From positions 1-53,070 of IMG/VR virus record IMGVR_UViG_3300020034_000020: a stretch of DNA of 53,070 nt. One strand, given 5' to 3'. Below are positions 4,122 through 12,704 of this stretch, piece by piece. The number at the start of each line of letters is the position of its first letter. Position 1 is the stretch's first letter. Below the pieces are notes generated by a model, which was given only the letters and a program-made list of their open reading frames with translations, had not been told where the DNA came from and did not search any database. Source of the DNA: a virus (taxonomy: Duplodnaviria; Caudoviricetes). The translations under genes and the position numbers were made by a program.

Positions 4122-5279
4122 ATGGCCGAAGCACAGTTTACTCCCTATCTTCCTCCTGGCGGCATTGTCGACGCCGCTTTCTCCGGGGCGAGTCAAATGC
4201 AGTCCTTGATGGCGCATGGTCAGCAAATGCGCGAGAGCGCCGAGCAAGCCCAACGCGCAAAGGAGATTTACGAAGTGGGCCGCCCCGTGATGGAGGCGAA
4301 GGCGCAGGCGGATTTAGCAGTCGCACAGGGCACACTCTACAACGCGCGCCAAGTACAACAGTTGCGTGCGCAGTTCGGGCAAGCCTCAAAAGACGCCGGA
4401 GCCGAATACCAGAAGGCCATGCAGCTCCCGACCTACGAACAGCAGGCCAATGCGCTTTCAGATGTCGCGCAGAAGTATTCCTATTTCGAACTTTTCCCTG
4501 AAGGTAAGGCGTTCATGGATACAATCCAAAACAAGGGACTTCAGCAGACCCATTACGGGATTTTAGATACCCAGAATCGCGCCGCCCTCGCCCGGGAACA
4601 ACAGCGCTTCGAGGACGAGACAGCCCTCACGATTACCAAGGGTGACGAAGCCCGCAAGACCAACGCCGCTTACGGCAAGGGTGAGAGCAAAAACGAGAAG
4701 GACATGCGTTTAGTTCAATCCCTCCGCGACCAGGGACGCACCGATGACGCCAACGCTTTAGTTAATGGGTTGAAGGGCGGAAGAGGTGGAAAGCCCAGTG
4801 CCGACATCCAGCTCGTGGACCGCATTGCCGAGGAGACTCGTAACCCAAATGGGGACCCCGAGGTTCTTGCGCTACTCAAGGCCCGATTGCGCAAAAGTGC
4901 TCAGTGGGCGCCCCACCTGGCAGAGTTCGAGGCGAATCAAAATGAGGTCGAAAAGGCGACGGCTGAAGGGAATATCCCTCGGGCTGATGCCTTCGAAGCC
5001 CGCAACCGAGCCCTCGCTTTCAAGGCCGAACTTCCCGACACGTATCCCACGCGCGACAAGCCCGAAGAGAAAAAAACCACCATACTCGAAGATGTGCTTG
5101 GCGGCGTGAAGAAAATCAAAGCGGCGTTTAGCTCTGACCCGATTCCCGCGCCGAGTCCTCCAGCCGCGCCCGCGAACACGAAAACCGTGAAGATCGAAGG
5201 CAAAGACTATCCCGTTTACACGGACGCCAAGGGCAACCGCGCCTATCACAAAGACGGGAAGTATTACCCGATTCCCTGA
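4122..5279 (+). CDS. Internal virion (ejection) protein 2
   Basis: Helical, Q/A/E/K-rich; position between ejection proteins 1 and 3. Confidence 0.65.
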   Translation: MAEAQFTPYLPPGGIVDAAFSGASQMQSLMAHGQQMRESAEQAQRAKEIYEVGRPVMEAKAQADLAVAQGTLYNARQVQQLRAQFGQASKDAGAEYQKAMQLPTYEQQANALSDVAQKYSYFELFPEGKAFMDTIQNKGLQQTHYGILDTQNRAALAREQQRFEDETALTITKGDEARKTNAAYGKGESKNEKDMRLVQSLRDQGRTDDANALVNGLKGGRGGKPSADIQLVDRIAEETRNPNGDPEVLALLKARLRKSAQWAPHLAEFEANQNEVEKATAEGNIPRADAFEARNRALAFKAELPDTYPTRDKPEEKKTTILEDVLGGVKKIKAAFSSDPIPAPSPPAAPANTKTVKIEGKDYPVYTDAKGNRAYHKDGKYYPIP

Positions 5280-8200
5280 TGCCTTTCGACGCCTCAACCG
5301 CCACGTTGGAGGCCGAGCCTCAGGTGGCAGGCTTCGATCCTTCGACCGCAAAACCAGATACGTCCCAGGCTCAGGCCTTCGACCCTAAGACGGCCGCGCC
5401 GCTTAAAGAGGACGTTCCGGATACGGTTATCCGTTCCGCTCCATCGGAGGACGACCCGCTTAACCCGATGGGGGCGGGGCTGCGCGCAATTCGTAAAGCG
5501 CTTTCACCCCTTATCGGCAAAACCGAAGAAGAGCAATTGGTCGCGGGGGCCGAAAGACAGCGTCTCGAAAAACAGTTTCCACAAATCGCGCGTCACGCCG
5601 AGGAGACCGGCGGAAGCGAAATTGAGAAGAAGGGTTTTCTCGGCGGCGTGATGACCAATAAGAGCCCGTGGGCTTTGGCGGTGAACGATGGCGAGGCGGT
5701 CCGCGAAAAAGGAAACCCACTCGCCGAGGTACTCCTTGCGCCAAAAGAAAAAGATGACCCGACGTCGCTTAAGATCGCGAAGGCGCTCTACACCCCCATT
5801 GCGCATACGCTCAACGCGCTTTCTTCGCCGGCAGGCCTGGGCACGGCTGCGATTGGTGCGGGTGCCGAGGCGATCGCGGGCGCCAAATCAGGCCTCGCGG
5901 CCGTCGCTCCGGATTTTATTGGCGCGACTAAGTTGGGCGGTGAATCGGCCCCACTCCTTAAACAGGTTGAGGGCGCGGTTGCTGGGGTTTTCGCCTCGGA
6001 CATGGCGAGCGGGCTGGCGAGCAGTTTGCCGGGCGCCTATGCCAAATGGACCAACCCGGACGTTGACGCCCAGGAAAAAATCCAGGCCGGAGTGGAAATC
6101 ACCCTAAACGCAGCGATGGCCGGACTCGCGGGGGTTGGAGCCTATCGAGGATTAAAGCCCGCTGACGTGGCGGGAATGCGACCCACCGAGGCCGTGAAAG
6201 CGCTCGCTGAAACCTCGGGTAAAACCGTCGAGGAGGTTGCGACGGATGCGCATAAAAACTTTGAGGAGCTCATCGGCCCGAAACAGCCCGAGGAAAAGCA
6301 ATCGGAGTTCAATTTCGACCCCGGCACGGCCCTGCCGGATACGTCGTCGCCGGACGTCATGGCGCCGCCATCTTTCAAGTACGCCATTTGGCCCAAGGAA
6401 TATGGTGTAGCCCGCAGAGTCGACGTGACGCGCTACACTCCGGGTGAACAGCGTATTTCTGAGTCTCGTCTCCTAGAGGACTGGCAGAAGGAGCATCCCG
6501 ATTTGCCTATCCCTCACGAAGACCATCCGGAGGGCAATTTCACAGACGAGCAAGTCCGTGGTTTCGAACCGCGCGAAAAGGAAATCCTCGCCGAACAAGA
6601 CGCCGAATTTACTCCCGTTGGGCTAGGCGCCGCAACGCGCGAGGAGATGACGCCCAAGCCAAGTGTTACCGGCATTAAGAATGCCGACATTGACGCCGAC
6701 CGCGTGAGCCGGGGTCTACCCCCCTTGATGGACACGGCCCGCCGAGGCTGGGGTAAGGTCTGGGAGCAGGCCATGCAACGGATCGACGATTTCGCGAGCC
6801 GGGGCGAAGACGCCGCCAATGAGATTATTGCAAGCCAACTCGACAAGCCTTCGAATATTTCGGACGTCGAGCAGGCGATTCTCCTTCATCGACGGATCGA
6901 CCTAAAAAACCAATACGAGAAGGTCGCCGCGCGGCTGATCGAGGGACACGAAATTGGCAGCGAGGTAACTCTTGCCTCGGACCGTTTGCGAATCGCTCAA
7001 CTCGAAGACCAGCTCCAAGACCTCGAACAGGCCAACAAGGTTGGCGGTGCGGAGTCAGGCCGTGGACTCGCTGCCCGAAAGATGATGGCGCGGGAAGATT
7101 TTTCGCTCGTGAATATGCGGCTGCGAAGGCGTGCCAATAAAGGCGGGGCGCCTCTGACTGAGGCGGAGGGCGCGGAGGTTGAGGCGGCCCACAAGAAAAT
7201 CGTCAAGGCCCAGGAGGAACTCGACCTCCACGCCAAAGGCGGAACGGACACCGAGAGCGACGCGGCGGCAGACGAGGCCGTCGATCAAATTAAGAAGGAC
7301 GTGGGAAGTGAACCCGCCGAGAAAGCGAAGGATTTCGACCTCGATAAAGAGCGCGACCGGGCAATCGACAATATCAGAAAGCGAGTCGAGGACGACGCAT
7401 CGCCCGAGGACCTCACGGCCTTCATTCGCAAGCTCGCGGAGAATTTTGTCCGCCGTGGCGTCAATGAACGTAGTGCTTTAGTGGATGCAGTCCACGGCGT
7501 GATTAAAGATATCATTCCAGAGATGACGCCGCGCCAAGTCATGGATGCGATTTCTGGTTACGGCGATTTCAAGCCTCTCGACCAAGACGCGGTGAAGGTT
7601 CAGCTTCGCGACCTCAAGGGCCAAATGCAACAGGTCGCCAAGTTGGAGGACATGCAGAAGGGTCAAGCGCCGTCGAAAACCGGCGTGGAACGTCGCACCC
7701 CGAGCGACGAAGAGCGCCGCCTCATTAAGGAAGTAAACGAGATGAAGCGCAAAGGCGGCTTCAACGTCACGGACCCAGCGAAGCAATTAAAGAGCGCCCT
7801 GGACGGGATCAAAACTCGGCTCACAAATCAGATTGCGGACCTGACCCACCAAATCGAAACGCGCACGCGTATCGTTAAAACAAAAACGGCGGTGGCGCTC
7901 GATGCGGCGGCCGAAGCGCTCACAAAGCAACGCGACGCCCTAAAGGAGCAGTTCGATCAGATTTTCCAAAAGCCGGAGCTGACAGACGCGCAACGACTCG
8001 CCCTGGCCGAGAAAACGGCGGACCGTCAAATCACGGAGCTCGAAAGGCAGCTCCGAAACCGCGAGGTGTTTCCATCCGCGAAAACGCCGGAACTGGAAAG
8101 TGCGGCCCTCGAAGCGAAACGTGCCCGCATCGAAGCACTGAAAGAGGAACGAGAGAATATCCGCGATAGCATCCAGCCTGGGCGTCTCAACGAAGGGCGG

Positions 8201-9760
8201 CTCGGGGCATTGAAGTCGCGCCTGACAAATCGCATCGCCGAACTCCAGGAGCGTCTTGCTAATTCCGATTTCGGACCGCGCCCAAAACGCACGCCAATTG
8301 AAATGGACGCCGAAGCGGAACGGCTCCAAGCGGCGGCGACTCGCGCGAAACAGGAATTCGAAACAGCGCTCCTTAAAGACCGCTTAGCGAATCGTCCGAT
8401 GCTGCAAAAGATGAAGGATACCTTCGTCAAATGGCAGCGCGGTTTCCTTCTCTCTGGGCCAATCACGCTCTTTAAACTCACGGCCGCCGCCGGGGTCCGG
8501 ATGGCTTCGAGTGCGGCAGAGGAAGGGGTTGGCGGGGTGATTTCCAAGGCACTCCCGTCAGTGGCTGAACAGGCACCGCGCGAAGGCGGCCTCAGCCTGA
8601 AGGCCGAAGCGAAAGCTATTTCCTCAGCCCTCACCCAGGGCATGCGAGACGCGGCGCAAACGCTCAAAACCGGGAGGAGCGACCTCGATGTGAATTATGG
8701 GAAAGGCAAAGACGGCGCCGTTCGGGAAAGCGATGTTTTGCCGCGCTCGATGATCGACTTTTTTGGTGCTCTCCATGGCGCCCTCAAAGCCCCGGTGAAG
8801 CGCGCGGAATTTGAGCGTTCACTACAAAAGCGCATCGAGAGCTATCTAAAGAATAACGCCGATCTCACCGACCCGGCGGTCCAGGTAAAGGCCATGCTGG
8901 AGACCTTTAAGCAGGAGGCTTATAAAGACGCCTCTCGCTCGATTTTCCTCCAAGACAATGTCCTCGTTGACATGGTCAATAGCTTCATTGGGCGCGGCGA
9001 ACAACCGCTTAAAGCCACCGGCAAACCGAGCCCCGGAGGGACGGTGGCGGCAGGTGTAGCGCGCGGGCTGTTCCCGATTGTCCGCGTGCCGCTGAATATC
9101 GTTGCGGAGACCGTCCAGTATGCGACGGGGCTTTATACTGGCTCGGGGCGGCTTGGCCTGGCGTTCCGCCGCGGGATCGAAAACCTCTCTCCGGAACAAG
9201 CTGACTTGATAATGCGGGACCTAAAGAAGGGCATTATAGGAACTACCGCTTTGGTTCTTGGATACGCCTATGCCGACCAGGTGGGCGGCTATTATACAGG
9301 CGAGAAACCAAAGCTCACCGCTGCGAAATTCGGCACCATTAAATTTCTCGGCTACAATATTCCGAGTTTCCTTCTTCACAGTCCTCTTTTGGAAGCCGCC
9401 CAAATCGGTGCGACCATTCGCCACGTTCTCGATAAGAAGATTCGCGGAGCGGATCAAAGTCTGGGCTCTGCCGTCTGGATGTCTGCGCTCGGTCTCGCGG
9501 ACGAAACGCCCTTTGGACACAGTGCTTCGACGGTTGCACGGCTCCTCGACCCACGGGAGACCTCGAAGGCTGGGGGTGAAATCGCGAAGTCAACCCTCGT
9601 CCCTCAACTCGTTTCAAACATCGCCGAAGGGCTAGACCGCGACGCCAAAGGTGTAATTCCGCGAAAAACCGAGGGGCCGGTGACGGCCATCGAATCCGGT
9701 ATTCCCGGGCTCCGCGAAACCCTTCCCGTCGACCAGCGCCGCGCGAACCGCCGCCAATAA
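5279..9760 (+). CDS. Large internal virion (ejection) protein 3, 1493 aa
   Basis: Size, coiled coils, hydrophobic C-terminal segments, last gene of the structural module. Confidence 0.7.
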   Translation: MPFDASTATLEAEPQVAGFDPSTAKPDTSQAQAFDPKTAAPLKEDVPDTVIRSAPSEDDPLNPMGAGLRAIRKALSPLIGKTEEEQLVAGAERQRLEKQFPQIARHAEETGGSEIEKKGFLGGVMTNKSPWALAVNDGEAVREKGNPLAEVLLAPKEKDDPTSLKIAKALYTPIAHTLNALSSPAGLGTAAIGAGAEAIAGAKSGLAAVAPDFIGATKLGGESAPLLKQVEGAVAGVFASDMASGLASSLPGAYAKWTNPDVDAQEKIQAGVEITLNAAMAGLAGVGAYRGLKPADVAGMRPTEAVKALAETSGKTVEEVATDAHKNFEELIGPKQPEEKQSEFNFDPGTALPDTSSPDVMAPPSFKYAIWPKEYGVARRVDVTRYTPGEQRISESRLLEDWQKEHPDLPIPHEDHPEGNFTDEQVRGFEPREKEILAEQDAEFTPVGLGAATREEMTPKPSVTGIKNADIDADRVSRGLPPLMDTARRGWGKVWEQAMQRIDDFASRGEDAANEIIASQLDKPSNISDVEQAILLHRRIDLKNQYEKVAARLIEGHEIGSEVTLASDRLRIAQLEDQLQDLEQANKVGGAESGRGLAARKMMAREDFSLVNMRLRRRANKGGAPLTEAEGAEVEAAHKKIVKAQEELDLHAKGGTDTESDAAADEAVDQIKKDVGSEPAEKAKDFDLDKERDRAIDNIRKRVEDDASPEDLTAFIRKLAENFVRRGVNERSALVDAVHGVIKDIIPEMTPRQVMDAISGYGDFKPLDQDAVKVQLRDLKGQMQQVAKLEDMQKGQAPSKTGVERRTPSDEERRLIKEVNEMKRKGGFNVTDPAKQLKSALDGIKTRLTNQIADLTHQIETRTRIVKTKTAVALDAAAEALTKQRDALKEQFDQIFQKPELTDAQRLALAEKTADRQITELERQLRNREVFPSAKTPELESAALEAKRARIEALKEERENIRDSIQPGRLNEGRLGALKSRLTNRIAELQERLANSDFGPRPKRTPIEMDAEAERLQAAATRAKQEFETALLKDRLANRPMLQKMKDTFVKWQRGFLLSGPITLFKLTAAAGVRMASSAAEEGVGGVISKALPSVAEQAPREGGLSLKAEAKAISSALTQGMRDAAQTLKTGRSDLDVNYGKGKDGAVRESDVLPRSMIDFFGALHGALKAPVKRAEFERSLQKRIESYLKNNADLTDPAVQVKAMLETFKQEAYKDASRSIFLQDNVLVDMVNSFIGRGEQPLKATGKPSPGGTVAAGVARGLFPIVRVPLNIVAETVQYATGLYTGSGRLGLAFRRGIENLSPEQADLIMRDLKKGIIGTTALVLGYAYADQVGGYYTGEKPKLTAAKFGTIKFLGYNIPSFLLHSPLLEAAQIGATIRHVLDKKIRGADQSLGSAVWMSALGLADETPFGHSASTVARLLDPRETSKAGGEIAKSTLVPQLVSNIAEGLDRDAKGVIPRKTEGPVTAIESGIPGLRETLPVDQRRANRRQ

Positions 9761-9768
9761 TTTTCCTT

Positions 9769-9909
9769 ATGAGCTCAAATCAACAATCCAAACTATATTC
9801 GGGCAAAGGCAAGAAGCCTGCCGCCCTCGTTCGCAGTACCGCCAAATCCAAGGCCCTCCGTGCGAAAAACACGGACCCGATGTGTCTTATTAAGTGCAAA
9901 CAAAAATAA
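9769..9909 (+). CDS. Small basic protein, 46 aa (not in the ORF track)
   Basis: MSSNQQSKLYSGKGKKPAALVRSTAKSKALRAKNTDPMCLIKCKQK fills the gap between the flanking genes. Confidence 0.55.
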   Translation: MSSNQQSKLYSGKGKKPAALVRSTAKSKALRAKNTDPMCLIKCKQK

Positions 9910-9914
9910 CCCCT

Positions 9915-10367
9915 ATGAAAACCTTCCGCGCTATCGCCTTCTGTCTGGCCTGGAGCTTCTTTTGCTCCGCCTGTTCAACTACTCCTATTAAGATCACCCC
10001 GGAGACCGGGGCGATGCTCGTGCGGATTTCGGTCATGGCCGGGGTCGCCCCGATGCTCAGTAATAACCCGAAGTATATCCCGGCCTCCGAAGCCTTGGCG
10101 ATGGGTATCGGGGCGGCGCTTCAGCAAAACATGACCATCACGCCGGAACTGATCTCCCAGTACGTGAACCGCGTTTGCAGGGAAAAGGGCGTATCCGAAA
10201 ATGACATACCGCTCTTCGTCACCCTAGCCGAAACGATTTACGACACTTACGTTGCGACCTATAAACCAACGGTGATTAACAGCACGGACCCCAACGCCCT
10301 TCTTTATATTAACGCTTTCCGTGATGGCCTGCTTGCCGCAGCGACCATCGCCAGTACCAGAAAATGA
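9915..10367 (+). CDS. Predicted lipoprotein
   Basis: Signal peptide MKTFRAIAFCLAWSFFCSA-C with a lipobox-like Cys. Confidence 0.7.
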   Translation: MKTFRAIAFCLAWSFFCSACSTTPIKITPETGAMLVRISVMAGVAPMLSNNPKYIPASEALAMGIGAALQQNMTITPELISQYVNRVCREKGVSENDIPLFVTLAETIYDTYVATYKPTVINSTDPNALLYINAFRDGLLAAATIASTRK

Positions 10368-10663
10368 TCCTCGCCGATATCATTACCCCGAACACGAGTG
10401 TCTCGGTCACGATCGCAGCATGCTTTACCATCGTGGTTGCACTCGTGGGTGGCACCTGGCGCATTTCGGCACTCCTTAATCGCCTGGACCGCCGCTTCGA
10501 CGACCTGGAGCGCAAGACGGGCGAGTCTTGGAGTCTGGATGATATGCGGGCCTGGGTTCGTTTGATCGACAAGGCCAACGCGACCCTCGTTGTCCCGGAC
10601 CCCGACATGGTGACGCGAGATCCGGTCTACCGGAAACACGGCACGACGCCCCCTCATGGATGA
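10364..10663 (+). CDS. Small membrane protein, holin-like
   Basis: One N-terminal TM segment followed by a short charged coiled coil. Confidence 0.5.
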   Translation: MILADIITPNTSVSVTIAACFTIVVALVGGTWRISALLNRLDRRFDDLERKTGESWSLDDMRAWVRLIDKANATLVVPDPDMVTRDPVYRKHGTTPPHG

Positions 10664-11004
10664 GCATCACCCGTGAGCACCTCGCCCAAATCCTCGCTCG
10701 TAGTGGATACGCCCTCGAAGCTGAAGGTGTCTCTCTACGGGCACGGCAACGTCCGGTCATTCAAGAACACCAAGCAGATAGTCCCAGCCCGAAACGGAAA
10801 GCCGCCGTTCCTCGTAACTCATCCCGAAATCAAAAAGCAAATGGACGGGATCATCCGCGATTTGCTCTCACTCTTAATTTCCGCGTCTCAGACAATCGGC
10901 CACGAGACCTCGACGGGCTCCTCTCGACGATCCTTGATTGCCTCGTTACTGCCCGAGGACGATTCGCGGCAATGGATACCCCGAATCCTCGTGGAGTGCG
11001 CTGA
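10660..11004 (+). CDS. RusA-like ORF A (central catalytic RDLD segment)
   Basis: RFALTLNFRVSDNRPRDLDGLLSTILDCLV resembles RusA (RRRDLDN..K...DAL). ATGA-coupled to the upstream gene. Confidence 0.6.
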   Translation: MSITREHLAQILARSGYALEAEGVSLRARQRPVIQEHQADSPSPKRKAAVPRNSSRNQKANGRDHPRFALTLNFRVSDNRPRDLDGLLSTILDCLVTARGRFAAMDTPNPRGVR

Positions 11005-11053
11005 GGTCGCGCCTGGCGAGGAGGGCGTCGATCTTACGATTGAGCGGCTCTAA
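10673..11053 (+). CDS. RusA-like ORF B (N- and C-terminal RusA segments), overlapping ORF A
   Basis: GNVRSFKNTKQIV at the N-terminus and LPEDDSRQWI...GEEGVDLTIERL at the C-terminus. Confidence 0.65.
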   Translation: MSTSPKSSLVVDTPSKLKVSLYGHGNVRSFKNTKQIVPARNGKPPFLVTHPEIKKQMDGIIRDLLSLLISASQTIGHETSTGSSRRSLIASLLPEDDSRQWIPRILVECAEVAPGEEGVDLTIERL

Positions 11054-11361
11054 AGCTTCGGCATGGGCATCAATTTAACCGGTTTCCCAGGCTCAAACAC
11101 AAAGGACTTGGTCTCCGAGAAGACGTATAAGGTTCTAGCGTCCCAACGGTCGCTCAACTCCTGGTAAACGGTCAGCATCCAATTTAGATATTCCGTTTGA
11201 ATCGCCTTCACGAAGGCGCGATCAATCTCCGCGTCCGTGTTCCATTTAAGGATAGGTCGCGTGAAGCCCGGCTCTTTCGAGTCAGGAACGCGAAACTCGC
11301 AAGAAACGCCGTTCGCAAACGTTTTTTGGAAGAATAGCATTTTGGGTTCGTCGGTATTCAT
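11050..11361 (-). CDS. Hypothetical protein
   Basis: Last gene of the leftward operon; ATG 11361 chosen to avoid overlap with dnaB. Confidence 0.6.
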   Translation of the reverse strand: MNTDEPKMLFFQKTFANGVSCEFRVPDSKEPGFTRPILKWNTDAEIDRAFVKAIQTEYLNWMLTVYQELSDRWDARTLYVFSETKSFVFEPGKPVKLMPMPKL

Positions 11362-11375
11362 GTAAAGGGATCGGT

Positions 11376-12704
11376 TCAGCGATTTATGGGCCGCGCGCCG
11401 AGTTCGAATCTTGCGCACTCCCTGCGAAAATACACTGAGCTAAAGGTCGTGCCGACATTGCGCCCCTTTTCCTGGAAAATATCTTGGAAGAACCGCGGTT
11501 GCTCACTGACATCCTCATGGGGTTTTTGCGTCATTTTCGTGATCGGGTCTTGGTCCGGCCGATGCAGCATAAGGACCCGGTCGGCATGGGCCTCGATGTC
11601 GCCAGAGTCTTTTAGGTCGATGAGTTTTGGCTCGCGATTCCCGTCTCTCATTTGGTCGCGGTTAAGCTGAACGCCAAGGAAGACGACACATCCCAGCTCC
11701 GTCGCGAGACGCTTGAAAGCCGCGGTCACCATTCCGGTATTTGAGGCCTTCGTGCCAAACCGCGATTGCTCGCAATCCCTAATTAGCCCGAGGTAGTCGA
11801 TTGCAATTGCATCAAGAAAGCCGGTTTCGTGAACACGCTGGCTCGCCGATAGGATAGGATCGAGCGAGGTGAGGTTATCTATGACCGTGATGGGTAGGGC
11901 GCGAAGGCCCCGCAGCGCCAAATGAAACTCCTTTTGGTCTCTGGGGTGTAGGTCCTTTAGCTTCGCCCAGGAATGCCCGCAGACCGCGGCTGCCATTAAG
12001 TTTGCAATGTCGCCTTGCGGAACCTCCAAGGAGATCATCAGCGTATTCAAATCTCGCGTCGCGGCGTGGTGGAGGAACTGCCGCATGAGAGACGATTTCC
12101 CAAGTGAGGGACTTCCCGCAACGATGCAGAGCTCACCCCGCCGAAAGTTTCCGTGTCGCTCACCCAGAGAAGGCCAGGGCCATTCAATCGTGCGAATTTC
12201 CTCGGGCTCTTCTTTCGCTATAATAGCATCAACCTTTTGCGCCTCGACTGTGATTGACTGCTGCCAGGTGAGAGGCGGTCGCGGGTCTGCGCTGAGGTCT
12301 GCCGCCTTGAGTTGAGCCAATGCCTTTTGCGCCGTCTCGTCGTCTTTACTATTCACGGCCTCCGAAAATTTCAGCGCGTTGAGCTGGGTGATGCGCTGCT
12401 GGTTTAAGCGCTTCAGCTCGTAGCACAGAGGCCTTAGCTCGCAGGAAATCATTCCTGGGTTCTCGCGGGTGACGCGCACATAATCCTCCGGTGACATATG
12501 CCCTTTTTCGAAAATCACCTCTCTCAGATACGAAACGAAGAGAAACCTTCTCGTCTTCAGGGTTTCGTGCGCTAGCTCGAAATATGCCCGGCAAGCCGAA
12601 TCGGTGAAGTGCTCGCCTGTGACACCAAGCTCGGCAATAACCTTCATTGCCTCCACTTCGCCGTAATGGATAAAAGCCGTTATGCGTTCTTCGAGAGCGT
12701 TCAT
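11376..12704 (-). CDS. dnaB: DnaB-like replicative helicase
   Basis: Walker A GSPSLGKS, IDYLGLI, QLNRD, DLKDSGDIEAHADRVLMLHR. Confidence 0.95.
   Translation of the reverse strand: MNALEERITAFIHYGEVEAMKVIAELGVTGEHFTDSACRAYFELAHETLKTRRFLFVSYLREVIFEKGHMSPEDYVRVTRENPGMISCELRPLCYELKRLNQQRITQLNALKFSEAVNSKDDETAQKALAQLKAADLSADPRPPLTWQQSITVEAQKVDAIIAKEEPEEIRTIEWPWPSLGERHGNFRRGELCIVAGSPSLGKSSLMRQFLHHAATRDLNTLMISLEVPQGDIANLMAAAVCGHSWAKLKDLHPRDQKEFHLALRGLRALPITVIDNLTSLDPILSASQRVHETGFLDAIAIDYLGLIRDCEQSRFGTKASNTGMVTAAFKRLATELGCVVFLGVQLNRDQMRDGNREPKLIDLKDSGDIEAHADRVLMLHRPDQDPITKMTQKPHEDVSEQPRFFQDIFQEKGRNVGTTFSSVYFRRECARFELGARPINR

What the first reader, a model, noticed from the sequence alone, without database searches (positions are those of the whole stretch)
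10660..11053. RusA-like resolvase split between two almost fully overlapping reading frames
Seen: frame B (10673-11053) has the RusA-like N-terminus (GNVRSFKN, then an amphipathic helix) and C-terminus (EDD with DD at 10958-63, ...VDLTIE), but no RDLD. Frame A (10660-11004) encodes the missing middle: a strand RFALTLNF, RPRDLD (RDLD at 10903-14) and a helix STILDCLV. Known: E. coli RusA uses D70/D72 (RDLD) plus D91 (DD). The frame-A strand is written over the frame-B helix, so a double frameshift would lose an element. Inference: two overprinted proteins assemble into one split enzyme. An alternative is -1 slippage at CAAAAAG (10831-37) followed by a +1 return. Caveat: the residues equivalent to N73 and K76 are substituted.
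Basis: partly seen in the sequence, partly recalled or inferred. Interest (0 to 1): 0.85.

Follow-up and report, generated by a model that had tools for sequence, protein, structure and literature searches.

The report
RusA-like resolvase written across two frames
In this soil phage and dozens of distant relatives, one 390-base stretch is read in two overlapping frames, each holding alternate pieces of a RusA-like DNA-junction-cutting enzyme, so the enzyme is probably assembled from two proteins made from the same DNA.

Summary
ORF A (10660-11004) and ORF B (10673-11053) both exist.

Both frames stay open in all 35 non-redundant related loci tested. Chance would give about 4 of 35 (A) and 9 of 35 (B).

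Selection alternates along the DNA:
- B frame over 10712-10843
- A frame over 10853-10948
- B frame over 10949-11050
- A's N-terminus is also selected in frame A

The selected stretches overlap at 10852-10876, where wobble choices show both frames constrained. No conserved slippery site lies at either switch.

Read through the second switch, the window aligns collinearly with two natural single-frame RusA-like proteins: 47% and 44% identity, E 5e-17 and 5e-15. One of them passes Pfam's RusA cut-off.

A complex model docks A's strand and helix into B, score 0.65 against a best control of 0.00.

Best reading (0.6): two overprinted proteins form a split RusA-like resolvase. A double frameshift is unlikely.

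Binding, activity and expression are not shown. The equivalents of RusA K76 and N73 are substituted.

Three literature searches found nothing in print. This scan has noted the same phenomenon in at least 17 other genomes.

The parts
10660..11004 (+). ORF A, 114 aa. It has an N-terminal helix, a linker of about 45 residues with no selection of its own, a RusA-like strand, the RDLD motif, a helix and a short tail.
   Evidence: The frame is open in all loci. 35 A proteins are aligned in A2. AF2 of A alone gives a helix at 5-15, no secondary structure with pLDDT about 50 over 16-65, and pLDDT 82-91 over 71-100.
10673..11053 (+). ORF B, 126 aa from GTG 10673. The real start may be GTG 10703, which aligns with the ATG starts of homologues P0004, P0007 and P0008. 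B holds the first strand, the SFKNxK motif, a helix, an S/T/G-rich middle, DD and two terminal strands.
   Evidence: 480 clusters (at 50% identity) match the B profile at E<=0.001.
10660..10663 (+). ATGA: A's start codon overlaps the TGA stop of the upstream ORF (10364-10663, which is in frame B).
   Evidence: The same ATGA or GTGA overlap occurs in 12 of 36 loci, and TGATG in 2 more.
10669..10719 (+). A's N-terminal conserved segment (T-x-E-x-L...), selected in frame A. B's start codon lies inside it.
   Evidence: At the conserved T and E columns, A's third codon position is the most variable (entropies 0.95/0.72/1.63 and 0.60/0.51/1.94). AF2 puts a helix at 5-15.
10712..10843 (+). Segment selected in frame B: first strand, S29-F-K-N-x-K34 (10757-10774), loop, start of the helix, and invariant Met57 (10841-10843). 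Frame A here reads an unselected K/R/Q/P-rich linker that is nevertheless kept open.
   Evidence: B's third position is the most variable and B's amino-acid conservation exceeds A's. Close-clade differences by B position 1/2/3 are 42/38/80. Phe30 is TTC in 33 of 33 Phe codons; TTT would create TAA in frame A.
10852..10876 (+). Doubly constrained overlap. B's amphipathic helix (I61, L64, L68) is written over A's H65-P66-x-F68...L72, the start of A's strand.
   Evidence: A's F/Y68 codon is TTT or TAT in 35 of 35, never TTC or TAC (background TTT 0.41, TAT 0.38). A's residue 72 is NTT in 32 of 35. The wobble T keeps B hydrophobic. In the complex model, B residues 60-61, 64-65 and 68-69 touch A.
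10853..10948 (+). Segment selected in frame A, the RusA-like core: strand F68-R75, R82-D83-L84-D85 (10903-10914), invariant G86, and helix L87-A98 with invariant D93. Frame B here reads an S/T/G-rich loop that is kept open, with the island S87-x-I89-A90 conserved.
   Evidence: B's second position, which is A's third, is the most variable, and A's conservation exceeds B's. Close-clade differences by B position 1/2/3 are 13/45/34. phrog_34 (RusA-like) matches 18 of 35 A proteins. hhalign places the motif on RusA's DxDN..K..D.
10949..11050 (+). Segment selected in frame B: L93-P94, D96-D97 (10958-10963), S98, W101-I-P, two strands and G115-x-E117-G118.
   Evidence: 47/41/83. This segment continues the RusA match when the second switch is read through. 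Asp96 is GAC in 35 of 35, since GAT would create TGA in frame A; Asp97 is GAC 24, GAT 11.
10831..10837 (+). It is not a canonical X_XXY_YYZ heptamer in this window.
   Evidence: Canonical in-phase heptamers occur in 9 of 35 loci, none in the window, and all lie 3-12 codons upstream of B's invariant Met.
10364..10663 (+). Upstream ORF, 99 aa, with a hydrophobic N-terminal stretch. Its stop is coupled to A's start.
   Evidence: No PHROG family matches.

Best explanation
Two nearly co-extensive same-strand genes are both translated in full, each from its own start.

- Protein B supplies the first strand, the SFKNxK loop, helix 1, the DD motif and the last two strands of a RusA-like fold.
- Protein A supplies an extra N-terminal helix, a disordered linker, and then the missing middle: strand 2, the R-D-x-D acidic motif and helix 2.

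A's strand and helix insert into B non-covalently. This rebuilds a RusA-like domain whose acidic site is shared: D83 and D85 come from A, and D96 and D97 come from B. By analogy with dimeric RusA, the complex is probably an (A.B)2 Holliday-junction resolvase.

Shown here:
- both frames are open and selected
- selection alternates and in places overlaps
- the A-core plus B-C-terminus is homologous to contiguous RusA-like proteins

Predicted: the A-B contact.

Inferred: start-codon use by coupling or re-initiation after the upstream ORF, the stoichiometry, and nuclease activity.
For: 1. Both frames stay open. The off-frame is open in 35 of 35 loci against 4.2 and 8.6 expected. Stop-avoiding codons are visible: Phe30 is TTC in 33 of 33, and Asp96 is GAC in 35 of 35, while the next Asp is GAC 24, GAT 11.

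2. Selection alternates by codon-position entropy and by amino-acid conservation. Substitution counts in close relatives agree. A's N-terminus is selected in frame A.

3. The selected parts overlap, so one polypeptide cannot carry both. A's wobble is T in 35 of 35 at F/Y68 and in 32 of 35 at residue 72. That keeps B's L64 and L68 hydrophobic.

4. Frame A avoids stops just after the second switch (the GAC above). In one subclade A runs past B's stop to a conserved ...PF end.

5. Each ORF has a start codon, and A's often overlaps the upstream stop.

6. There is no conserved slippery site.

7. The complex model scores a median ipSAE of 0.65 (runs 0.57, 0.65, 0.67), with the best of 3 controls at 0.00. 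The tool's mark was reached by 58 of 80 solved complexes and by 2 of 110 mismatched pairs. The runs agree in at least 95% of contacts, and the partner's pLDDT is at least 65. A residues 68-75 lie against B 105-108 and 119-124, and A 94-98 against B 60-61.

8. Neither protein looks complete alone. B has pLDDT 69 with residues 77-87 under 50, and no Foldseek hit at E<=0.001. In A only residues 66-105 are confident.

9. The link to RusA:
- phrog_34 matches 18 of 35 A proteins
- the window's read-through scores phrog_34 E 1.6e-5 over both parts
- 8 of 9 other read-throughs have phrog_34 as their top family
- BLASTP against the natural single-frame proteins P0180 and P0228 gives E 5e-17 and 5e-15
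- P0228 passes Pfam's RusA cut-off at 27 bits; P0180 scores phrog_34 at 2.4e-13
Against: - No expression, protein or activity data exist. No RNA run holds the locus.
- The complex score is a model's confidence and may reflect memory of the RusA fold. It would be equally high if the pieces were really one chain.
- Pfam's RusA model matches neither A, B nor the read-through of the window. B alone shows no statistical likeness to RusA.
- The equivalent of RusA K76, which is critical in E. coli RusA (PMC1636454, passages read), is S89 here and varies. N73 is replaced by an invariant Gly. The second Asp (D85) is Asp in only 30 of 35 loci.
- No Shine-Dalgarno motif is evident before either start.
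- Natural relatives with strand 2 through strand 4 in one frame (P0180, P0228) show that the second break is not universal. A +1 shift there would recreate a known arrangement.
- The loci are phylogenetically related, so the combined probabilities are overstated.
Confidence: 0.6

Rival explanations
1. Mixed recoding. Ribosomes reading frame A shift +1 near 10946-10950. This yields an A-B fusion (N-terminal helix, linker, strand 2, helix 2, DD, strands 3 and 4) like the natural protein P0180. The first strand and helix 1 still come from B in trans. Full-length A and B are also made.
For: P0180 (130 aa) has exactly this architecture in a single frame. It is 47% identical to the window's +1 read-through, with a 3-residue gap at the switch. 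The read-through raises the RusA-like PHROG score from 15.5 to 25.7 bits.
Against: No conserved shift-prone sequence lies at the switch. Frame A avoids stops immediately after the switch: Asp96 is GAC in 35 of 35, and in the alignment I saw no T at the preceding wobble. A shift before the DD motif would make that avoidance unnecessary. A's helix is modelled through residue 105 and touches B.
Confidence: 0.12
2. Double programmed frameshift. One ribosome starts in B, slips -1 before strand 2, and returns +1 before DD. This makes a single-chain B-A-B RusA.
For: The B-A-B order of selected segments matches the order of RusA elements. A AAA AAG occurs in phase in some relatives. An earlier scan note on another genome (e1-6199099) proposed this reading.
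Against: In-phase heptamers occur in only 9 of 35 loci, none in the window. All lie upstream of B's invariant Met57, which a shift there would skip. The parts this model does not use are kept open in 35 of 35 loci. A has its own coupled ATG and an N-terminus selected in frame A. B's helix and A's strand are both selected over 10852-10876, so the single chain would lose most of helix 1.
Confidence: 0.08
3. Both ORFs are real genes, but they do not rebuild a nuclease. B is a degenerate RusA-derived protein lacking the DxD motif, for example a junction binder or regulator. A is a separate small protein that keeps a RusA remnant. The pair may or may not interact.
For: The catalytic Lys76 equivalent is absent, and D85 varies in 5 of 35 loci. 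Pfam RusA is not matched. A has an extra conserved N-terminal helix and, in some clades, a conserved C-terminal ...PF tail of its own.
Against: The invariant residues are the ones a shared acidic site would need: D83, G86 and D93 in A; D96 and D97 in B. The conserved part of each protein sits exactly where the other lacks a fold element. The complex model is confident and reproducible against zero-scoring controls.
Confidence: 0.15
4. Artefact: a RusA gene broken by two sequencing or assembly indels, or a decaying pseudogene.
For: The B-A-B pattern is what two compensating indels would give in a single sequence.
Against: The same arrangement is found in 46 fetched loci from independent assemblies, down to about 30% identity. 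Contigs from three studies show no indels over the parts they cover. Both frames are under purifying selection.
Confidence: 0.01

Closest known systems
RusA Holliday-junction resolvase (E. coli DLP12 RusA, Pfam PF05866, PHROG phrog_34)
   Same: The order of elements is the same: strand, PSxN-like loop, helix, strand, R-D-x-D, helix, DD, two strands. The acidic residues equivalent to D70, D72 and D90/D91 are present. The total size is about 120 residues. The gene sits beside replication and recombination genes. PHROG-level matches support the link. Residue roles are taken from PMC1636454 (passages read).
   Different: The elements are distributed over two reading frames and, on the best reading, two polypeptides. 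The Pfam model is not matched. K76 and N73 are substituted. A carries an extra N-terminal helix and linker, and B a 35-residue loop.
Natural single-frame relatives P0180 (130 aa) and P0228 (80 aa, Pfam RusA 27 bits)
   Same: They are 47% and 44% identical to the window's A-core plus B-C-terminus, collinear across the second switch. P0180 has the same A-type N-terminal helix and linker.
   Different: In these proteins strand 2, helix 2, DD and strands 3-4 are in one frame, so there is no second switch. P0228 keeps the canonical RDLDN. Their DNA could not be fetched, so it is not shown whether the first strand and helix 1 lie in an overlapping frame there. P0180's FVQELK is what an overlapping SFKNxK would give; this is inferred.
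Lambda Rz/Rz1 spanin genes, the embedded architecture (PMC6139136, passages read)
   Same: One gene lies in another frame of the same DNA, both are needed, and the two products bind each other. Gene callers usually miss one of the pair.
   Different: Rz and Rz1 are unrelated proteins with separate folds. Here the two products are complementary fragments of one ancestral domain, the overlap is about 95% of both genes, and selection alternates between the frames.
Programmed frameshifting in phage and bacterial genes (dnaX, tail-chaperone G/GT, prfB). The systems are recalled; see also PMC10885494 (passages read).
   Same: Information for one product is spread over two frames. A AAA AAG occurs in some relatives.
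   Different: There is no conserved slippery site or stop at either switch. The second frame is open from its own start codon. Two or three shifts would be needed.

Membership tests
RusA (PF05866) | Match to the family model above its curated cut-off (22.8 bits) | tested here: not met
   No PF05866 match was found for A, B, 35 A homologues, 35 B homologues, the six-frame window or the +1 read-through. The relative P0228 passes at 27 bits, and P0180 scores 21.1 bits. The PHROG RusA-like family phrog_34 scores E 0.021 for A and 1.6e-5 for the read-through.
RusA (PF05866) | Acidic metal-binding residues equivalent to D70, D72 and D90/D91 | tested here: met
   A's D83 is invariant, and D85 is Asp in 30 of 35 loci. 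B's D96 and D97 are invariant. hhalign puts them on RusA's DxD...DD. They lie on two different ORFs.
RusA (PF05866) | Lys76 (critical for catalysis) and Asn73 (minor role) | tested here: not met
   K76 aligns with S89, which varies among S, E, A, T and D. N73 aligns with the invariant G86 (roles from PMC1636454). B's invariant K31 or the nearly invariant K34 could substitute; this is speculation.
RusA (PF05866) | One polypeptide carrying the whole domain | tested here: not met
   The elements alternate between the frames. No single open frame holds them all.
RusA (PF05866) | [12 protein letters not shown] mixed sheet flanked by two helices; homodimer | tested here: inconclusive
   The complex model places A's strand against B's last two strands and A's helix against B's helix. 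No coordinates were returned to superpose on RusA. Neither A nor B alone matches any PDB fold.
RusA (PF05866) | Mg-dependent cleavage of Holliday junctions | not testable with these tools
   This needs a biochemical assay.
Overlapping gene pair with interacting products (Rz/Rz1 kind) | Two same-strand ORFs in different frames, both open and both under purifying selection | tested here: met
Overlapping gene pair with interacting products (Rz/Rz1 kind) | Each ORF has its own translation start | tested here: inconclusive
   Start codons are present in all loci. A's is ATG in 28 of 36 and coupled to the upstream stop in 12 of 36. B's chosen start is ATG in 25 of 36. No Shine-Dalgarno motif is evident, and there are no expression data.
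Overlapping gene pair with interacting products (Rz/Rz1 kind) | The two products bind each other | tested here: inconclusive
   This is a prediction only: ipSAE 0.65 against a best control of 0.00.
Programmed ribosomal frameshift | A conserved shift-prone sequence, in phase, at the frame switch | tested here: not met
   In-phase heptamers occur in 9 of 35 loci, none at or after B's invariant Met, and none in the window. Nothing is conserved at the second switch.
Programmed ribosomal frameshift | A downstream stimulatory RNA structure | not tested
   Dual coding constraints would confound covariation analysis, so I did not attempt it.

The most novel reading that the evidence does not exclude
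A single small enzyme domain is encoded in alternation by two reading frames of the same DNA (A, B, A, B along the sequence). At least eight codons are selected in both frames at once. The domain is rebuilt after translation from two obligate partner proteins with a shared active site. The family arose from an ordinary single-frame RusA through one-switch intermediates of the P0180 type. It is now widespread in uncultured phages, with at least 480 clusters at 50% identity.
Probability: 0.55. Interest if true: 0.9.

Novelty: new variant of a known kind. Interest (0 to 1): 0.82.

Why it matters
If the two products do assemble, this is a natural case of one protein fold being interleaved between two frames of one DNA stretch. 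That is a far tighter form of overprinting than the usual pairing of one old gene with one new disordered gene.

It would matter in four ways:
- It shows that fragment complementation can rescue frame-broken genes and then become fixed.
- It gives a compact model for how dual coding constrains sequence.
- It explains why gene callers and Pfam miss the resolvase in a large group of soil and aquatic phages. Either A or B gets called, as a hypothetical protein.
- It offers a built-in way to tie the two halves of a potentially toxic nuclease to one transcript.

It is directly testable with a 400-bp clone.

Tried and rejected
Searches and comparisons that gave nothing useful:
- Pfam scans of A, B and their homologues found no RusA. 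A six-frame PF05866 search of the phage found nothing at E<=10.
- Profile searches of PDB sequences with B (A1), A (A2) and the read-through (A5) found no RusA at E<=10.
- Foldseek of B alone found nothing at E<=0.001. Foldseek of A alone found no match at all.
- hhalign against my 8-sequence RusA alignment (A4) was weak. A scored E 0.0034, the read-through 0.0037, and B 0.46 with a misaligned match.
- Local hhalign of script-built B-A-B composites against A4 gave E 0.0014, barely better than A alone at 0.0027. The A-B-A and B controls gave 0.81 and 0.47.
- A local HMM built from the 8 RusA sequences was too poor to discriminate. Median scores were 4.35 bits (B-A-B), 3.75 (A), -0.9 (A-B-A) and -1.0 (B). 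I treat both local tests as inconclusive because the RusA alignment was bad.
- The ESM Atlas gave only leads. A's second and third nearest clusters carry RusA (scores 0.90 and 0.89). B gave no usable hit.
- tblastn of B against 50,697 cultured-phage records found no match. No isolate, and hence no host, is known.
- P0180 has no relative in viral contigs. P0228 led only to an ordinary single-frame RusA, L058.
- No RNA holder is listed for the locus. Contigs of four runs (three studies, one of them probably the source) cover the stretch in part or in whole with no indels. Contigs cannot show expression.

Literature:
- Three searches found no paper describing a RusA gene in two frames: RusA / overlapping reading frames / frameshift; RusA / overprinting / dual-coding / embedded gene / overlapping genes; RusA / programmed ribosomal frameshift / slippery sequence / resolvase.
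- PRFect (PMC10885494, passages read) lists 'RusA/RuvC' among genes 'known to contain a frameshift', but the reference it gives is about ruvC.
- The corynephage phi16 paper (PMC5506516, passages read) mentions RusA and a frameshift in unrelated genes.
- Supplementary files were not consulted.

Recalled rather than taken from any call: the secondary-structure boundaries of E. coli RusA, the Rafferty 2003 structure paper, the SSB C-terminal tip, and the dnaX, prfB and G/GT examples.
Full report
**What is there.** The window is a complete 53-kb virus record. Soil metagenomes hold the stretch. Two ORFs share nearly all of their DNA at the end of a plus-strand gene block. ORF A runs 10660-11004 (ATG, 114 aa). 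ORF B runs 10673-11053 (GTG, 126 aa) and lies one base to the right of A's frame. A's ATG overlaps the TGA of the upstream ORF (ATGA at 10660-10663). B's real start may be GTG 10703, which aligns with the ATG starts of homologues P0004, P0007 and P0008. Downstream, on the minus strand, lie a 122-aa ORF and a DnaB-like helicase (phrog_19, E 1.7e-44).

**Both frames are kept open.**
- B has homologues down to about 32% identity. Its profile finds 480 clusters (at 50% identity) with E<=0.001 among 1.84 billion representatives. The 150 listed all match in one stretch.
- I fetched 46 loci: 21 from viral contigs, 2 from MAGs and 23 from metagenome contigs.
- Every locus that covers the gene has both frame B and the -1 frame (A) open for more than 100 codons. 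The third frame is open for only 4-71 codons at the same point.
- After dropping 7 duplicates and 4 partial loci, 36 sequences remained. L030 was then dropped from the later counts because its codon threading was off by one.
- I resampled synonymous codons of the selected frame, using each locus's own codon usage. Frame A stays open over B's N-terminal part in an expected 4.2 of 35 loci. Frame B stays open over A's core in an expected 8.6 of 35. Observed: 35 of 35 for both.
- Individual codons show the avoidance directly. B's Phe30 is TTC in 33 of 33 Phe codons, because TTT-AAR would read TAA in A. B's Asp96 is GAC in 35 of 35, because GAT would read TGA in A. The next Asp is GAC 24, GAT 11. 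Background frequencies are 0.59 for TTC and 0.56 for GAC.

**Selection alternates between the frames** (36 sequences).
- Over 10712-10843, B's third codon position is the most variable and B's amino acids are the better conserved.
- Over 10853-10948, B's second position, which is A's third, is the most variable and A's amino acids are the better conserved.
- From 10949 to 11050 the pattern returns to B.
- Among the four closest sequences, differences at B positions 1/2/3 are 42/38/80, 13/45/34 and 47/41/83 in the three segments.
- A's first 20 residues, which lie upstream of B's conserved part, are selected in frame A.
- The order of selected segments is therefore A, B, A, B.

**The selected segments overlap.**
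- Within the A-selected core, A's wobble base is fixed wherever B needs a hydrophobic residue.
- A's F/Y68 codon is TTT or TAT in 35 of 35, never TTC or TAC. Residue 72 is NTT in 32 of 35. D93 is GAT 28, GAC 6.
- These choices keep B's L64, L68 and I89 hydrophobic, on the face of a helix that runs from about residue 51 to residue 73 in the AF2 model.
- So between 10852 and 10876, B's helix and A's strand are both under selection. No single ribosome path can read both.

**No signal for frameshifting.** An in-phase X_XXY_YYZ heptamer occurs in 9 of 35 loci. There is none in the window, whose CAAAAAG is not canonical. All nine lie 3-12 codons upstream of B's invariant Met57, which a shift there would skip. 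Nothing shift-prone is conserved at the second switch. Both ORFs have start codons, and A's precedes B's by 7-46 nt in 34 of 36 loci. A's start overlaps the stop of the upstream ORF in 12 of 36 loci, with TGATG in 2 more. I saw no Shine-Dalgarno motif before either start. Coupling or re-initiation after the upstream ORF is my inference.

**Is it RusA?**
- Taken alone, neither protein matches Pfam's RusA model.
- A's core matches the PHROG RusA-like family phrog_34 weakly: E 0.021 for the window, 18 of 35 homologues at E<=1, best 9.7e-5.
- hhalign lays A's S-D-x-R-x-R-D-x-D-G...D-C-L on RusA's D-x-D-N..K...D-a-L.
- B alone matches nothing.
- I read the second switch through with a four-letter step (GTTA=V), as a test of the +1 hypothesis. 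The product, P0176, scores phrog_34 at E 1.6e-5 and 25.7 bits, with one alignment running over both parts (residues 8-71 on profile positions 128-193).
- Of 9 other loci read through the same way, 8 have phrog_34 as their top family, at E 6e-4 to 0.35.
- The decisive link came from searching with an alignment of these read-throughs. Of the 72 hits, most cover only about half the query because they are A-type or B-type proteins. Two natural single-frame proteins have their RusA-like part collinear across the switch.
  - P0180 (130 aa) is 47% identical over 76 residues, E 5e-17.
  - P0228 (80 aa) is 44% identical over 66 residues, E 5e-15.
  - Both alignments have a 3-residue gap exactly at the switch.
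- P0228 passes Pfam's RusA cut-off (27 bits against 22.8). P0180 scores phrog_34 at 2.4e-13 and Pfam RusA at 21.1 bits.
- So A's core plus B's C-terminus are homologous to a contiguous RusA-like sequence.
- That B's N-terminus is RusA's first strand, PSxN loop and helix 1 rests on pattern and on the structure model only.

**Residues.** The roles of E. coli RusA residues are from PMC1636454 (passages read). D70, D72, K76 and D90 are critical, D91 also lies at the cation site, R69 acts in DNA binding, and N73 has a minor role. Here R82, D83 (invariant), D85 (Asp in 30 of 35) and D93 (invariant) are in A. D96 and D97 (invariant) are in B. K76 aligns with the variable S89, and N73 with the invariant G86.

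**Do A and B fit together?**
- B alone folds only moderately: pLDDT 69, with residues 77-87 under 50. It has no PDB fold match.
- A alone gives an N-terminal helix, then about 50 residues without structure, then a confident extended segment plus helix over 66-105. It also has no PDB match.
- The complex of B with A residues 58-114, each given with 35 aligned homologues, scores a median ipSAE of 0.65 (runs 0.57, 0.65, 0.67). The best of 3 controls scores 0.00.
- The tool's mark was reached by 58 of 80 solved complexes and by 2 of 110 mismatched pairs. Because I supplied my own alignments, those counts hold only roughly.
- The runs agree in at least 95% of contacts, and the partner's pLDDT is at least 65.
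- A residues 68-75 lie against B 105-108 and 119-124. A residues 94-98 lie against B 60-61.
- This supports complementarity. It does not prove binding, it may draw on memory of the RusA fold, and it cannot tell two chains from one.

**Why two proteins rather than one recoded chain.** The stretches that a B-A-B chain would not use are A before 10844, B over 10853-10948, and A after 10950. All are kept free of stops. A has a coupled start and an N-terminus selected in its own frame. The selected parts overlap. In a subclade (L018, L020, L044, P0020-P0027), A runs 20 nt past B's stop to a conserved ...[V/I/P]PF end. I put 0.6 on the split-enzyme reading, 0.12 on an added +1 shift that makes a P0180-like fusion, 0.08 on a double shift, 0.15 on two real genes that do not form a nuclease, and 0.01 on artefact.

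**Origin (inferred).** P0180 has an A-type N-terminus and linker, and its FVQELK is what an overlapping SFKNxK would give in the other frame. Its strand 2 through strand 4 are in one frame. It therefore looks like a one-switch form, with the window's family carrying a second break in the loop before DD.

**Novelty.** Three literature searches found no description of this arrangement. The nearest known architecture is lambda Rz/Rz1, one gene embedded in another frame with products that bind each other (PMC6139136, passages read). Those two proteins are unrelated to each other. This scan's own notes list 18 findings of the same phenomenon in at least 17 other genomes, two of them followed up with the same conclusion. 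They are unchecked AI notes and I count them as leads, not support.

Noticed in passing
L018, L020, L044 (A frame, about 20 nt past B's stop); proteins P0020-P0027: In one subclade, ORF A is about 145-171 aa, runs through the whole of B, and ends just beyond B's stop in a conserved C-terminal ...[V/I/L/P]PF. This resembles, from memory, the C-terminal tip of bacterial SSB. It suggests that A carries a partner-binding tail of its own.
   Followed up: partly
L006, L012, L013, L015, L022, L028, L032, L036, L039, L040 (A frame over B's C-terminal part): In another subclade, A stays open almost to B's stop (10-22 nt before it, and beyond it in L036). There it reads a basic tail ...D.[KR][TA]LR[KR].A..[LK][KR]R.RGR over B's terminal strands. 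Whether that tail is selected or is just a shadow of B was not tested.
   Followed up: no
P0180 (130 aa), P0228 (80 aa); DNA not available: These are natural relatives with strand 2, RD.D, helix 2, DD and the last two strands in one frame. P0180 still has the A-type N-terminal helix and linker. They look like one-switch forms of the same dual-coded gene.
   Followed up: partly
window 9894-10367 and 10364-10663 (+): Two small coupled ORFs lie just upstream. The first begins with a lipoprotein-like signal (...FFCSAC). The second has a hydrophobic N-terminal stretch followed by a charged helix-like region. They might be a lysis (spanin-like) pair. Neither matched a PHROG family.
   Followed up: no
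window 5279-9760 (+): A 1493-aa ORF, Ala/Glu/Lys-rich with long coiled-coil-like stretches, has no PHROG match at E<=0.001. Other first-reader notes on this window call neighbouring genes ejection proteins.
   Followed up: no
window 11050-11418 (-) and 11376-12704 (-): A 122-aa ORF converges on B and overlaps its stop by 4 nt. It has no PHROG match. Behind it lies a DnaB-like replicative helicase (phrog_19, E 1.7e-44).
   Followed up: partly
PHROG families phrog_1532 (80 positions) and phrog_11573 (110 positions): Both are labelled 'unknown function', yet both match the A core, the read-through products, P0180 and P0228 collinearly. They are probably unrecognised RusA-like families or fragments of this dual-coded family.
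   Followed up: no
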